Shown here piece by piece: positions 31,965-59,491 of a stretch of DNA of 64,000 bases. The notes beneath the pieces are model-generated. The model was given only the letters and a program-made list of their open reading frames with translations. It did not search any database and had not been told where the DNA came from. The position numbers and the translations under genes are program-made. Every line of letters begins with the position of its first letter. The stretch's first letter is position 1. Origin of the DNA: Octopus sinensis (Eukaryota); the NCBI RefSeq assembly GCF_006345805.1, contig NC_042997.1, positions 102,796,001-102,860,000 on the forward strand, written 5' to 3'.

Positions 31965-32548
31965 TCTCTTCATAACTCTCATTCTATCTTACTCCCCTCT
32001 TTCAAATATATAAATTCTCTCTATATTTCTTCCTTCTCTCCCTATCTCTTCAGTTTCTCTCCAGCTTCTCCTTGTCTCTCCATTACTCTCTTCTATCTCT
32101 TCAGTTTCTCTCCCGCTTCTCCTTGTCTCTCCATTACTCTCTTCTAACTTACTCTCCTCTCTCGGATACATATAAGGACATAGACGCTTTCTCTCTCTTC
32201 CTTCAGCTCTCAGTCTCTCCTCTTCCTCTTCTCTCTTACTCTCGGCTCCCAATTTCTCTTCATAACTCTCATTCTATCTTACTCCCCTCTTTCAAATATA
32301 TAAATTCTCTCTATATTTCTTCCTTCTCTCCCTATCTCTTCAGTTTCTCTCCCGCTTCTCCTTGTCTCTCCATTACTCTCTTCTATCTCTTCAGTTTCTC
32401 TCCCGCTTCTCCTTGTCTCTCCATTACTCTCTTCTAACTTACTCTCCTCTCTCGGATACATATAAGGACATAGACGCTTTCTCTCTCTTCCTTCAGCTCT
32501 CATTCTCTCCTCTTCCTCTTCTCTCTTACTCTCGGCTCCCAATTTCTC
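31965..32548 (+). repeat. Pyrimidine-rich tandem duplication, 2 x 290 bp, in the putative LINE 5' UTR
   Basis: attctatcttactcccc recurs at 31981 and 32271, with internal subrepeats of about 50 bp. Confidence 0.9.
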
Positions 32549-32666
32549 CTTAAGTACATAGACGCTCCCTTTCTCTACTTCCTCCCTACCCCCTATTGCA
32601 CTATTAGACTAATATAAATTAATATAATATAATTAGATAGACAGATAGATAGATAAAATATCAAGA

Positions 32667-33557
32667 ATGTCCAGAATCTGGAAACGTGACGAACTGGCGT
32701 GGTTCCTGCGAGGATGGCAATGCGCTGACGGAGAAAATCCAAATAATATAATTACGGCTGCGCTGAAGAACAACGGATACAAAAGGACGTCAGCTCAAAT
32801 AGAGCGGAAGAAGCAAGAATTTATACGCTCCTACGCACTTGTCAGATCGCACATTAACACGCTGGATGCCATTTTTGACAGCGAAAAACGCGAACAAAGT
32901 AAAGATGGCAAGGATAGAGACGCGAGCGCTGATGAAGAGGGTCACCCCCACCTGGTAGACGCCCAGGAAGAAAACTCCAGTGAGAAGCCTGCCCGGGAGA
33001 TGAACCCAGGTGCGGATGCTCCTACCAGCACCAAAAGCCATGGACATGGAGGTGAAAAAACCAAAAAAGGAAGAAAAACTGAAGCTAAAACACAGACAAA
33101 GCCAAGGGGCAAGGCAGCCAGGGATAGAGGCAAACCTAACTATCCATATGCCAAAAAGGATGGAAACGGGCAGCGCACACGGGTATGTAGGTTCTACCTG
33201 AAAGGTGCCTGCCGGCATGGAGAGGAGGGTGCAGGCTGCCGCTTTGCACATCAGGGACCCTGCCACAGAAACCAACCACCGAAAGGAAATGGGATGGACC
33301 ACGCATCACCTGCCCCAAAACGGAGGTACGCAGACGTGGTGCGTACCACAAACCACCAACGTGTTGTTGAAAGGGCAGCTGCTGAGCAGGAATCTTTTTT
33401 GTGCATGGCACAAAAGATTGTACAGCAGCTAACCTGGCTCCATCAGGCTCAGGCTCGCAGATGGAACTGCCCACAGTTCACAAGACCGCCACAGCAGATG
33501 GACCCAGGGTGGACACCGCCGGCAACAGCATACACCTCACCTCGATGCTCCTACTGA
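32667..33557 (+). CDS. LINE ORF1: trihelix Myb/SANT-like N-terminus plus CCCH zinc finger
   Basis: 296 aa open frame directly upstream of ORF2, containing WKRDELAWFL...NGYKRTSAQIERK and CRFYLKGACRHGEEGAGCRFAH. Confidence 0.8.
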   Translation: MSRIWKRDELAWFLRGWQCADGENPNNIITAALKNNGYKRTSAQIERKKQEFIRSYALVRSHINTLDAIFDSEKREQSKDGKDRDASADEEGHPHLVDAQEENSSEKPAREMNPGADAPTSTKSHGHGGEKTKKGRKTEAKTQTKPRGKAARDRGKPNYPYAKKDGNGQRTRVCRFYLKGACRHGEEGAGCRFAHQGPCHRNQPPKGNGMDHASPAPKRRYADVVRTTNHQRVVERAAAEQESFLCMAQKIVQQLTWLHQAQARRWNCPQFTRPPQQMDPGWTPPATAYTSPRCSY

Positions 33558-36497
33558 ACATCAGAGGACTACTAACACACAGTAACAGGACAAAAGTCCC
33601 GTTCCTGAGAGACTTTGTCGCATGCAATCAAGCCTTATGCATAGCACTCACAGAAACGCATCTGAAACCGGACATAGCAGATGCGGAATTACACATACCA
33701 CAGTATGTTGTACTACGGACCGACAGGAAAGAAAGGAGTCATGGAGGAGTTGCTATGTACATCCGTGGGGACCTCACACCCCAGGTCCTTTTGTCATACT
33801 CAAACTCGGTGTGTGACACACTAATTGAACACATAAGGCAACTTGATGTAGTTGTGTGTGCTACATATCGCCCTCCAGATGCCCCAAGTCATATGGGCAA
33901 GTTTGAGGACTGCCTTTTAAAAATAGAAGAAGTTCTAATCACATTAGAACAACACATAAGTGTACTTCTCATGGGAGACTTCAATCTACCCAATGTCAGA
34001 TGGCCCGAGGGCCTTTCTCTCCCAGGAATGACAAGATGTGAACGAGGACAGGCGAGGTCCCTCCTGAACCTCATCAACACCCTGTACATGGAGCAAGTAA
34101 TACTCCAACCAACCAGAGCAGGTAACACACTGGATCTCTGCTTCACAAATAATATGGATCTCATCCATAATGTGAAAGTGACACCGACACTACTCTCGGA
34201 TCACAACATGGTAGAGCTGACCATGTACGGGCCAAAAGAGAGCACGGACATGCAGCCTACAAGAAACCCTCAGAATCTTTCCAGGTTGAACTTCAATAAG
34301 GCAAACTGGAATCAAATTGAGAAAGAGATCCTCAAACAAAACTGGCCTGAATGTCTCTCCTCGCCGGACATCGACATGATACTTCAACAATTCATGTCTG
34401 TAATGCAAGCCATATGCTACAAATGTGTCCCAGAGAGAAAGGCCACTGTACACAAGAACAAAATCCCCAGAGAGAGGAAAATTTTAATGAGACGGCGTAC
34501 AAAAATTTCAAATCGCCTAAACAAACAAACTGAAAGCAGTGAAAAGTCCCGCCTGAAAATAAAACTGTTAGAAATTGAAAATTGTCTGCAACTCTCCCAT
34601 GAGAAGGAGAGAGCAGACAAAGAAGCCTGGGCTATAGACAACATAAAAACTAACCCCAGAGCTTTCTACAGGTATGCCAAAGAAACAGCTACGGTGCACT
34701 GTAGGATAGGGCCACTCCTTGAAAAGGATGGCACACTCACAGGAAAACCAATGAGGGTAAGTGAAATTCTGAATGAACAATTCAAGAGTGTTTTCACCCC
34801 ACCCCTTGGGCATTTCCAAATCAGCAATCCAACTGACTTCTTTACCACTGCAGATATAGAATCAGAGGCGGCGACGATAGATTACATCGATATAAAGGAA
34901 GACGATGTAATAAAGGCTATAGATGAAATGAAAACAGACTCAGCTATTGGCCCCGATGGATTCCCGGCAGTCCTCCTAAAAGTATGTAAGAGAGTCCTAG
35001 CAAGACCACTGCAGTTCCTCTTTCAGAGCTTCCTTGCAGCTGGCAAACTTCCAAGAAAACTGAAGGAAGGTAAAATATGCCCTATTCATAAAGGAGGTAG
35101 CAGAGCGGAGGCCAAGAACTACAGACCTATCTCTCTGACCTCACACATCAGCAAGGTCATGGAACAAATAGTCAGAAGGAAGCTGATCACCTTCCTTGAA
35201 GAGAATGACTTGCTGCCCGACACCCAACATGGTTTCCGACCAGGGAGAAGCTGCTTAACTCAGCTCCTGCAGCACTATGACTGGGTGCTGAAACAACTGC
35301 TCAATCACTCAAATGTAGAAGTCATATATCTCGACTTCGCAAAGGCCTTCGATAAAGTCGATCATGGAATGATATGTCACAAACTGCGTGATCTTGGCAT
35401 AGTTGGAAAACTAGGAGAATGGCTTCATGACTTTCTAAAGAATAGAAGTCAGGTGGTAGCAGCCAATGGGGCCACTTCCATTAGCACGCAAATTGTGAGC
35501 GGTGTTCCACAGGGCACTGTTTTGGGATCACTACTGTTCATAATGGCCCTCTCAGACATGCCCTCAGCCACGCGGAGAGCCACGATCACATGTTATGCAG
35601 ATGATACAAAAGTTTCACAGGCAATACAGAACCCTGAAGACACTAAGCACCTGCAATGTGAGCTGGACGAAATATACAAGTGGGCTGAAAAGAATAGCAT
35701 GCAGTTCAATGCTGAAAAGTTTCAAGCTTTATACTATCAGCATGCAAAACTGAATGCAATACCCAATGAATACACTGGACCCGGAGGGATTGCAATCCCA
35801 GAGGCACAATCAGTGCGTGACCTGGGTATTCACATGAGTGATGACGCGACCTTTCATGTACATGTTGCTAAACTGACAATGAAATGCAGACGGCTGGCTG
35901 GATGGATTCTTAGAACCTTTAGAACAAGAAACCATGATGGTCCTCTGGAAGACACTTGTCCTAAGCCACTTTGACTATTGCTCTCAGCTATGGTCACCAT
36001 CCAGTGTCAAGTTGATCACAGAACTTGAGGCGATCCAACGAAGCTACACGAAGAAGATAGCCTCTGTGCAGCATACGAGCTACTGGGAGAGACTCAAGAG
36101 ATTAAAGCTCTATTCCCTGGAGCGTAGGCGAGAAAGATATGCCATAATATATATCTGGAAGATCCTGGAAGGTCTTGTCCCAGACTTTGGCATCGAGAGT
36201 CACACAAACGCCAGAACCGGACGCCACTGCGTAGTACCAAGGACTCCAAATTTGCCATCAAGGTGTAGGACAAGATATTGTGATAGCCTGGGCTTCAGAG
36301 GCCCACGGCTCTTCAATGTCCTCCCGAAGAACCTGAGGGACCTGCATGGTGTAGATGCGGATGTCTTTAAAGTAGGACTGGATCTCTTCCTGTCAGGTGT
36401 CCCGGATGAACCAACTTCACGGCAGGAGGTGCAGATGAGGGCAGCTGCATCGAACTCTCTCATGCATCAGATGGCGTTTGCTAAAAAGCATCCGTGA
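33545..36497 (+). pseudogene. LINE ORF2 (APE endonuclease plus reverse transcriptase), one frameshift near 35930
   Basis: Motifs LNIRGL, LTETHL, GDFN, SDHN, YRPISL, YLDFAKAFD, GVPQG and YADD. Continues in the 35934-36497 frame (YSLERRRERY). The likely start ATG at 33545 overlaps the ORF1 stop. Confidence 0.9.
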
Positions 36498-40960: not shown

Positions 40961-41794
40961 ATCATCCTCTGTTCGAGCGTGTTCGGGGAGCCCAGTGTAA
41001 GCAAATCTGTCTAATTGGCTTAAAACTGCTCCTGATTAGCACATTCACGTGTGAATATGCCGGGATGTACTAATGTATTCAGAATGAATATGTATACCAC
41101 TGCGTTGCTTTTCGCTGTCCTCCGTGTAAGCGACGATATATTATCGGGTTGGTAACATCAACATGCGTCAGCAAATAATTTGCTTGCTGATTCCATAAAC
41201 AAGTGCCAAAATTCTTGTTTTAACTCAATGATCCGGGGATGCTTTGACTGAAGAAACACAACCTGGTCGAAACACCACAATGTCTCAAAGTCTCCTTAAG
41301 TCTACGAACAGAGTGTTTCTGAAAGGAAAATAGCATATTCATTTTCGAATCTGCTTGAAGGTATTAAGAATGAATATGTACGTCATTTATGTATGTTATT
41401 ATTCAGTTTATTTCAAGATTTCTTGCCAATAGAGAAAGAACCGGTTTCTAACCTAGATCCAAGGTTTCTTCATTGGAATTTTAACATCAACAACAGACAG
41501 GGTATTTTTGTATGTATGTATGCTTTATATATGTATTCTCATGGATAGAGTTACATATCTAGGCATGCTCATATATATTTAAATGATAAATTTCTGGAAA
41601 GTTTTACAGATTTTTACAGTTCCAGTGATGGACTGGATCTCTAGCCTTCGAATTAGCTTTCTCCTTTCTGGTTTTGAGAAGCTTAATTTCTCAAGATTGA
41701 TATTTAAGCAGTGTGTTACATATCCCAGGGTTCCAATAATGACAGGTATAAACCTGAACTTGTATGTATGTATGTATGTATGTATGTTTGTATG

Positions 41795-55619: not shown

Positions 55620-55733
55620 CTGTGGTGTCTGGGGAGAGTCATTTTCTTTTTGCGCCTTATAGTGTAAATTTTACCGGTGAGTGTGTTACAATATAAGGCA
55701 CAAAAAGAAAATGACTCTCCCCAGACACCACAG
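55620..55733. repeat. Hairpin with arms of about 45 bp
   Basis: ctgtggtgtctggggagagtcattttctttttgcgccttata pairs with tataaggcacaaaaagaaaatgactctccccagacaccacag. Confidence 0.9.
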
Positions 55734-57878: not shown

Positions 57879-58485
57879 ATATATATATATATATCGGGAA
57901 AGAAAGGTGAGTGAGACAGAGACTTAGAGAGAGAGAGAGAGAGAGAGAGAGTGGAAGAGATAGAAGAGAGAGGGAGATAAAAAGAGATGTATAAACAAGT
58001 ATCAGTGCATAAACATCATACACCATAAAAACATATTGTTATGGGACAGTGCTTGCGACCGACTTTTGTGAGTAAATCCTTTGTCCTGTCAGATTCAGGT
58101 GGATTGATGAGTTCTGGGGAGACCTTTGACCCTTTTCAGGCGAAACAAATTTCGAGGAAACACCCCTTAAAAATCAGGAGATGTGAGTCTGTTGGACAGT
58201 TGAGGACAGAGCGAGTTAGTAACAGGTTGTTTCTGCGGTGACAGTGAACGTGAAAGAGGAAGACAAGATTAAGGAGCTGAGAAGGAACTGAGAGAGATTG
58301 CGGCAAGAGGGCATGGCGATTACGGTTGCCGGGTTCGCTGCCGCCTCGCCCCACCGAATTCTCGCGTAGGCTCGAAACGTAAAAGACTTGTTTTATTTAT
58401 ATTCCTGAGCGCCATACTAATACAATTGTTTGTTTGTATTCCACCTGCCTTCGTCTTTTGTTTATTTTCATAAAACTTCCCGTTA

Positions 58486-58544
<59 letters not shown>

Positions 58545-58562
58545 ATATATATATTTTTTTTT

Positions 58563-58694
58563 ATTTATTATATAGAAGGAGCTTCTACAGGACTAGTACT
58601 GTTTCATTCAAGAGAAATCTTCAGGAAGCTTCCTGAAGATTTCTCTTGAATGAAACAGTACTAGTCCTGTAGAAGCTCCTTCTATATAATAAAT
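58563..58694. repeat. Perfect 132 bp zero-loop palindrome
   Basis: 66 + 66 bp, centred on AAG|CTT at 58628/58629. Confidence 0.95.
58627..58677 (+). ncRNA. Type I hammerhead ribozyme candidate (mirror copy on the minus strand, 58580-58630)
   Basis: AGCTTC-CTGAAGA-T-TTC/TCTT/GAA-T-GAA-ACAG-TACTAGTC-CTGT-A^GAAGCT. Helix I has 6 bp, helix III has 4 bp, and the GUA cleavage triplet ends at 58671. Confidence 0.65.
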
Positions 58695-59491
58695 TAATTT
58701 TACTCTGCTATGTATTGAGTACCTTACCTACTGTGGTTAACCCCGGATCAACCCGGGACCTACATATATATATATATATATATATTTACACGAAAATATT
58801 TCATAACATACACAAACACTTGTTGAGTTCTGTTGGCGAAATGTTCCTTCATTAAACTAATTATGGTGAAACCGGTGAAGTACGTACATACCATGATATC
58901 GAGTGTCAGTCGTTCTAACTCATGCTGAGTTAAGCATAAAAAGCATATTGTAGAATCAATGACGAGGAGTCAAAGGGACGATAAGCTTTTCAGCCAATGG
59001 CTAAATATATATATCGGCTGAATACTCTTCCCAGAGTACGCCTCTGGGAAGCGTTAAAAAATATGTGAAAAGCTGTCATAATACTATTCCATTTAACATA
59101 TTCACATCAAAATCACAGAAGAATTTGTTTACATTCTTATTTCACTCAGAGCTAGGCTGCCTTACGCAAACACACAAACATACATACACACATAAGCACA
59201 AATATATAATATACAATGTAGCGTGTAGTTGGCTAGCGGTGTACATTGAAGTAGCACTGAGAGTGCATCATCCAGTTACTAAATTTATTGACGCACCTGC
59301 AACTTGTTTAAAGATATCACTTATTACACAACTGCAGTCCCTATGACAATATTCACTGAAGATAAAACGAATGGAGATTAAAAGATAACAACAGTTTAAT
59401 ACATGCTACATATGTTTCAATAACAGCAAATTATTTGCACCTAATGTATTATATCAATGTTATTATATATGCTAAACTTGCATGTAAAATC

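What the first reader, a model, noticed from the sequence alone, without database searches (positions are those of the whole stretch)
58563..58694. Zero-loop 132 bp palindrome encoding a type I hammerhead fold on both strands
Seen: a perfect 66 + 66 bp palindrome. The right arm folds as helix I AGCUUC/GAAGCU, core CUGAAGA and GAAA, and helix III ACAG/CUGU with a self-complementary ACUAGU loop and a GUA cleavage triplet. Helix II is weak (U-U first pair). The symmetry axis lies inside the 5' strand of helix I. The right arm continues about 70 bp to (TA)n. Inference: fold-back synthesis started at the ribozyme's 5' boundary during insertion. A read-through RNA would form dsRNA that masks the ribozyme.
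Basis: partly seen in the sequence, partly recalled or inferred. Interest (0 to 1): 0.78.

Follow-up and report, generated by a model that had tools for sequence, protein, structure and literature searches.

The report
Head-to-head Penelope retrotransposon footprint
This perfect DNA palindrome is one of about 500 identical junctions left by a young Penelope-like jumping gene, likely made when its capped RNA was copied twice from the two ends of a cut TA repeat and the copies were joined, which would explain the long-puzzling inverted ends of these elements.

Summary
The 66+66 bp palindrome and the type I hammerhead are real, but not unique. The right arm is the 5' end of a young Hydra-clade Penelope-like retrotransposon (about 5,700 arms genome-wide), and the same zero-loop junction occurs 493 times. 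The axis marks the probable RNA start (+1 = 58627): a TATA box lies 29 nt upstream in full copies, short arms stop at +1, and an extra G precedes +1 in 13 of 14 informative cases (cap signature). Every arm ends on (TA)n at one of two sites (+68 or about +139), and 64 of 65 junctions pair one of each, with either arm the longer. Best reading (0.7): the RNA is primed twice from both ends of a cut (TA)n, both cDNAs run to the cap, and they join through the self-complementary AGCT. Simple fold-back is less likely. Templates were uncut: the equivalent junction at the cleavage site occurs 9 times. A second, distant family repeats the pattern, as predicted before searching. Cleavage, the start site and this locus in raw reads remain untested. 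Known kind of element; the mechanistic evidence was not found in print.

The parts
58484..58553 (.). Left half of the (TA)n target microsatellite
58554..58562 (.). Nine T between (TA)n and the left arm; not element sequence; likely slippage or untemplated addition at priming (inferred)
58563..58630 (-). Arm A: inverted copy of element positions +1 to +68, ending at priming site A
58627..58630 (.). AGCT shared by both arms: first four bases of the inferred RNA and the 4-bp microhomology of the junction (axis 58628/58629)
58627..58767 (+). Arm B: element positions +1 to about +139, ending at priming site B (58764-58767 shared with the TA repeat)
58627..58677 (+). Type I hammerhead motif, predicted cut after 58671; U.U at 10.1-11.1
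58580..58630 (-). Mirror copy of the hammerhead motif, predicted cut after 58586
58695..58763 (+). 69-nt 'tail' between sites A and B, present on one arm only; holds two predicted hairpins, the first resembling one in a second family
58764..58786 (.). Right half of the (TA)n target

Best explanation
The palindrome is a promoterless, non-coding insertion of a Hydra-clade Penelope-like retrotransposon into (TA)n, likely made by priming one capped, uncleaved RNA twice. Inferred steps: (1) a TATA promoter starts the RNA at the first base of the hammerhead (+1). (2) The element's GIY-YIG endonuclease cuts both strands of (TA)n. (3) One DNA end primes at site A (+68), the other at site B (about +139). 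(4) Both cDNAs run to the cap, often copying it as an extra G. (5) Their 3' ends anneal through the self-complementary AGCT at +1..+4, giving a zero-loop palindrome with the 69-nt tail on one side. Priming at the same sites in the downstream repeat gives the long inverted insertions. Shown: the parent element, copy numbers, end positions, A+B pairing and G bias. Inferred: start site, cap, order of events and one RNA versus two sister RNAs.
For: Parent: the arm continues into an RT + GIY-YIG frame in L031 and L084. Counts: 5,700 arms; 238+255 exact zero-loop junctions. First 100 arms on C1 (corrected): 5' ends 21 at +1, 43 at +2..+41, none at +42..+46, 3 at about -9..-26, 33 upstream of -40; 3' ends 34 at +68-72, 64 at +138-141, 2 elsewhere. 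23 of 25 pairs are exactly A+B, none A+A or B+B. 64 of 65 short junctions are A+B; A longer 20, B longer 19, equal 25. G next to a +1 arm in 13 of 14 inserts vs 12 of 28 for later-starting arms (Fisher p=0.002). TATAAAT stays at -29 in a subfamily with a different spacer. Arms agree at subfamily sites (at most 2 mismatches in 77-84 comparisons per site). Zero-loop junction at the AGCT after the cleavage site: 9. Second family: 553 junctions at the predicted start, 17 of 17 pairs A+B, sites about 70 nt apart. In vitro, a Poseidon PLE cuts and extends both strands, starts at two sites bounding the tail and uses uncleaved RNA (PMC11167929).
Against: No RNA 5' end data. 18 of 30 G-before-+1 arms could take the G from the partner arm. 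The boundary also looks like a splice acceptor (YAG after +2). One B+B junction and one inside a composite insertion (L176). The junction set was not random and counts a few tandem copies more than once. Later central deletions could mimic unequal arms. A linear RNA starting at +1 does not explain why 17 of 30 ORF-bearing copies carry upstream promoter sequence; longer-than-unit templates are also needed.
Confidence: 0.7

Rival explanations
1. Fold-back: one cDNA primed at site B reaches the RNA 5' end, snaps back, copies itself to +68 and joins (TA)n there. Later central deletions diversify the junctions.
For: Gives strict A+B pairing and identical arms. Some junctions (+9/+3 type) fit a small hairpin. 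Two pairs share a private variant.
Against: Arm A is the longer one as often as B (20 vs 19), by 1.4-2.2 kb in L036, L145 and L152. Site A alone ends a full-length copy (L031). A zero-loop AGCT hairpin cannot prime within one strand (established folding constraint). L174, L181 and L184 keep the extra G on both arms.
Confidence: 0.13
2. The boundary is a 3' splice site rather than the RNA start: templates are spliced RNAs or intron-end products, as in Drosophila Penelope, where the intron ends at the 5' end of helix I.
For: A branch-point-like motif and YAG end exactly at the axis. Precedent in PMC4209133.
Against: No common upstream exon appears in the junction inserts. In the second family, arms keep seven bases upstream of its YAG and stop at the predicted initiator. 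TATA spacing is conserved.
Confidence: 0.08
3. Self-priming on an antisense RNA, the published explanation for head-to-head PLE palindromes.
For: Proposed in PMC3846280. Accounts for head-to-head geometry.
Against: Does not predict the extra G before +1, the sense TATA at -29, or the A+B rule.
Confidence: 0.06
4. Sequencing chimera or assembly artefact.
For: This locus was not covered in the runs laid.
Against: 493 exact junctions and hundreds of variant ones with fixed biological ends. Inverted-arm loose ends in raw Illumina reads of run X21 (6 reads; 5 reads) and in contigs of X1.
Confidence: 0.03

Closest known systems
Hydra clade of Penelope-like elements (Craig et al. 2021, PMC8557442)
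   Same: Single short RT + C-terminal GIY-YIG frame, RWK-like, DKT and CxCX5C motifs, CxxC/CxH around the conserved E and N, hammerhead in the pLTR, (TA)n target.
   Different: This family reads RWR rather than RWK. Its tail is about 70 nt, against the 30-40 nt described for PLEs. It has a long microsatellite-like 3' UTR. Its ribozyme motifs were not found in the held, truncated supplement.
Head-to-head inverted pLTRs with palindromic junctions (Arkhipova et al. 2013, PMC3846280)
   Same: Inverted 5' pLTR, palindrome at the junction, tail on one side, overlap between the inverted and direct repeat.
   Different: Here hundreds of young copies fix the axis at the inferred sense start with a cap-like G, which argues for sense twin priming rather than antisense self-priming.
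Poseidon PAc in vitro (Frangieh et al. 2024, PMC11167929)
   Same: Two internal initiation sites bounding the tail, both DNA strands extended, uncleaved RNA as template.
   Different: That paper does not link each site to one DNA end or explain inversions in the parts read. Its ribozyme overlaps the ORF start; here it lies about 130 nt upstream of the ORF.
L1 twin priming and untemplated 5' G (review PMC4859970)
   Same: Two primers from one target, inverted 5' part, cap copied as G.
   Different: In L1 the inverted and direct parts barely overlap (recalled). Here both cDNAs copy the same 5' segment to the cap, which produces a palindrome.
Non-LTR retrozymes (bioRxiv 10.64898/2026.07.22.740005)
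   Same: Short, non-coding, type I hammerhead, PLE-derived.
   Different: Retrozymes are head-to-tail tandems defined by two same-strand ribozymes. This is a head-to-head, promoterless product.

Membership tests
Hydra-clade PLE | Single ORF with RT and C-terminal GIY-YIG endonuclease | tested here: met
   688-aa frame in L084 with YRDD and a VY...YIG motif; Pfam itself gave no RT hit on L031 pieces; a homologue of the sister family carries PF01541
Hydra-clade PLE | RWK and DKT motifs | tested here: met
   RWR and DKT in L031; RWK and DKT in sister families
Hydra-clade PLE | CxCX5C linker; CxxC and CxH around conserved E and N instead of CCHH | tested here: met
   (by eye, against the description)
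Hydra-clade PLE | Insertion into (TA)n and hammerhead in the pLTR | tested here: met
Hydra-clade PLE | Phylogenetic placement with named Hydra RTs | not tested
   No named reference proteins were in hand; no tree was built
Hydra-clade PLE | Element shorter than about 3 kb | tested here: not met
   Unit about 5.5-5.8 kb because of a long simple-repeat 3' UTR; the coding part is about 2.2 kb
Type I hammerhead ribozyme | CUGANGA, GAAA, UH core with helices I-III in type I order | tested here: met
Type I hammerhead ribozyme | G10.1-C11.1 pair | tested here: not met
   U.U in 138 of 138 and 149 of 150 arms; A.A in the second family
Type I hammerhead ribozyme | Conservation or covariation that fits the fold | tested here: inconclusive
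   In 151 arms common variants fall at N7 (38%) and loop 2 (19%), helices vary under 1%, and no compensatory change occurs; anchors bias toward conservation. The second family keeps the core with different helices
Type I hammerhead ribozyme | Self-cleavage | not testable with these tools
   Needs an assay; no Rfam match
Non-LTR retrozyme | Head-to-tail tandem units each with a type I hammerhead | tested here: not met
   Arrangement is head-to-head

The most novel reading that the evidence does not exclude
Penelope-like elements insert by priming a single capped RNA twice, once from each end of a double-strand cut, at two fixed sites that bound the 'tail'. This one rule produces their inverted pLTRs, one-sided tails and junction palindromes. 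In Hydra-clade elements the hammerhead is the very first structure of the transcript, is held off in inserting RNAs, and would decap the RNA or release a unit-length circle when it fires.
Probability: 0.55. Interest if true: 0.72.

Novelty: new member of a known kind. Interest (0 to 1): 0.52.

Why it matters
How PLEs form tandem and inverted structures is named as an open question in PMC8557442. The one published explanation found for the palindromes is antisense self-priming. Two young families in one genome give thousands of insertion records with a fixed start, a cap-like G, two priming sites and a near-strict one-of-each rule. That turns the question into exact, testable coordinates and connects it to the 2024 in vitro data. 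It also shows that ribozyme-cut RNA is rarely the template, which narrows what PLE hammerheads can be for. The single locus itself is most likely an inert, promoterless remnant.

Tried and rejected
Rfam: only hairpin-driven microRNA matches below gathering score, no hammerhead model. Pfam gave no meaningful hit on L031 pieces. Sequencing runs: no RNA holder listed; contigs of runs guessed to be RNA cannot show a start or a cut. Locus-level read check: no coverage of the right flank in any of 4 runs, inconclusive. Idea that the axis is the ribozyme cut site: rejected (5 and 9 such junctions, against 493; none of 100 arms starts at +42..+46). Idea of two unrelated RNAs in a dimer: not supported, arms share subfamily variants, though sister RNAs from one source are not excluded. 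My strict descriptor missed the ribozymes of sister families; they were found by eye. The inversion flag failed and was not used. One search removed duplicates wrongly and was redone. Three arms first scored at +1 proved to belong to a divergent subfamily. Earlier scan notes: none found. (129 junctions trimmed further in) was only a rough background.

Full report
Observation. The palindrome is perfect over 66+66 bp and breaks at the 67th pair; it was the only one with arms of 10 bp or more and over 15% G+C in the window. Both ends of the insertion lie on (TA)n. Below, +1 is window 58627, the A of the AGCT that both arms share.

What it is. The right arm has 852 candidate matches; the 39 other full-length matches listed are 99% identical. 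Exact motifs give 5,700 arms, 238 and 255 zero-loop junctions for two subfamilies and 642 junctions within 30 nt for the first. In L031 and L084 the arm continues into a reverse transcriptase plus GIY-YIG frame, followed by a long simple-repeat 3' region and a second copy of the repeat. The protein has RWR, DKT, YRDD, CxCX5C, and CxxC and CxH around the conserved E and N. These match the description of the Hydra clade of Penelope-like elements (PMC8557442; passages, sections 11 and 15 read). No tree was built. Only 55 exact arm-to-ORF junctions exist, so most copies are non-coding ends. The window copy has no mismatch between its arms and differs at 1 of 137 bases from 29 of 29 other close copies, so it is young. 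It lacks the upstream promoter.

The axis. In copies with upstream sequence TATAAAT lies at -29, also in a subfamily whose spacer differs. I mapped the first 100 of 5,700 arms (anchor +46..+68, so arms starting later are missed). 5' ends: 24 scored at +1, of which 3 proved to reach about -9 to -26 in a divergent subfamily; 43 at +2..+41; none at +42..+46; 33 upstream of -40. In 65 short junctions (not a random set, loci chosen for G or for the cut site left out, a few tandem copies counted more than once) the inserted base next to a +1 arm was G in 13 of 14 cases, against 12 of 28 for later-starting arms (Fisher p=0.002). Genome-wide the base before +1 is T 2,313 (native), A 1,340 (mostly the zero-loop overlap), G 706, C 316. 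Against this, 18 of 30 G cases could borrow the G from the partner arm. Untemplated 5' G is the accepted sign of a copied cap in L1 and SVA (PMC4859970, passages). I infer that +1 is the capped start and that it coincides with the first base of helix I.

The outer ends. Of the same 100 arms, 34 end at +68-72 (site A), 64 at +138-141 (site B) and 2 elsewhere, nearly all directly on (TA)n. Of 25 head-to-head pairs, 23 are exactly A+B and none is A+A or B+B. Of 65 short junctions 64 are A+B and 1 is B+B; one more B+B lies in a composite insertion (L176). Arm A reaches further 5' in 20 cases, arm B in 19, and 25 are equal. In long insertions A is longer by kilobases in L036, L145 and L152, and B in L033 and L166. 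The arms share subfamily variants almost always (at most 2 mismatches in 77-84 comparisons per site). Junctions are 4-bp microhomology (20), shorter microhomology (14), blunt (10) or carry small inserts (21).

Mechanism. A cDNA primed at A lacks the tail, so it cannot template arm B. A fold-back copy of cDNA B cannot be longer than B. Two RNA-templated cDNAs fit the data most simply, and the one-of-each rule points to one RNA primed twice. Both run to the cap, and AGCT at +1..+4 lets their 3' ends pair, which gives a zero-loop palindrome. This is inference. It agrees with in vitro work on a Poseidon element that extends both strands, starts at two sites bounding the tail, is predicted to be a dimer and uses uncleaved RNA (PMC11167929; parts 1-2 of 4 read). 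Fold-back followed by asymmetric central deletion remains possible (0.13). A splice boundary is a weaker rival (PMC4209133; parts 1-2 of 4 read).

Independent test. A second family, 47% identical in protein, has a different hammerhead. Before searching I predicted its start and a zero-loop join through a CTAG near that start. The search found 553 short junctions (3 for the reversed control). By eye, 11 of the first 50 places are the exact CTAG join and 8 have G before the predicted +1. Of 54 arms, 30 end at +82-89, 23 at +152-160 and 1 elsewhere; 17 of 17 pairs within a locus are A+B; 4 of 4 arms starting at +1 follow a G, though each could share it with the partner; 4 arms end between -35 and -3. 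Its helix I is predicted to begin at +1 as well.

The ribozyme. In 151 arms, common variants fall at N7 and loop 2, helices vary under 1%, and no compensatory change occurs. The 10.1-11.1 pair is U.U here and A.A in the second family, against the conserved G-C in the literature, so activity may be weak or assisted. In +1..+141 the hammerhead helices have predicted probabilities of 0.03-0.07 because a downstream hairpin takes the 3' strand of helix I; in the palindrome they are 0. A second AGCT lies just after the cut site, yet the zero-loop junction there occurs 9 times and a helix-I type junction 5 times, against 493 at +1. Templates were therefore mostly uncut. 17 of 30 ORF-bearing loci keep the upstream promoter, which needs longer-than-unit templates; ribozyme-released circles (proposed in PMC4209133) or tandem read-through could supply them. 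This was not tested.

Artefact check. Raw Illumina reads of run X21 show the inverted arm as a loose end near +1 (6 reads, 5), so the class exists outside this assembly. The locus itself had no flank coverage in the 4 runs laid.

Novelty. Inverted pLTRs, junction palindromes, tails and PLE hammerheads are known (PMC3846280, passages; PMC8557442; PMC2377424, passages; bioRxiv 10.64898/2026.07.22.740005, part 1 of 5). I found no paper stating the cap-G boundary, the A+B rule or twin priming for PLEs in searches (listings only). The library lacks most subscription papers, and the Craig supplement was held cut, so this family and such analyses may be on record elsewhere. Verdict: a new member of a known kind, an inert remnant at this locus, but part of a dataset that makes an open mechanistic question directly testable. 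Interest 0.52.

Noticed in passing
window 41241-41290 (+): A second hammerhead-like motif (7-bp helix I) in an old dispersed repeat, 40 matches at 70-88% identity besides none closer; possibly the pLTR of another PLE family.
   Followed up: partly
window 32649-36497 (+): Near-complete LINE: ORF1 with a weak CCCH zinc finger, ORF2 with AP endonuclease and RT, interrupted by a stop at 35974.
   Followed up: partly
window 55622-55731: Hairpin with about 39-bp arms and a 32-nt spacer, MITE-like; a few similar stretches in fetched loci.
   Followed up: no
L236:5180-5370 (10 kb right of the finding, outside the window): Another zero-loop palindrome of the same element, CUGAUGA subfamily.
   Followed up: partly
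window 58689-58725 and L217: In both families site A follows AATAAA by one base and precedes a similar short hairpin; a candidate conserved signal for RT binding or initiation.
   Followed up: partly
L032, L066, L034, L092: Secondary inversion axes upstream of +1, for example in the T-rich tract near -170, suggesting preferred stall or join points.
   Followed up: no
G000:C16:42874984-42877670 and C9:87420563-87422221: Head-to-head arrays of 200-490 bp tandem units containing the site-B/ORF junction, resembling retrozyme-like amplification.
   Followed up: no
L217-L234: At least four more Hydra-type families with open frames of 700-1,100 aa in this genome; close relatives are abundant in public assemblies (1,946 proteins).
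   Followed up: partly
window 58300-58480: The left flank next to (TA)n is itself a dispersed repeat, seen in many fetched loci.
   Followed up: no
window 31965-32548: Two 290-bp tandem copies, 99% identical, just upstream of the LINE.
   Followed up: no
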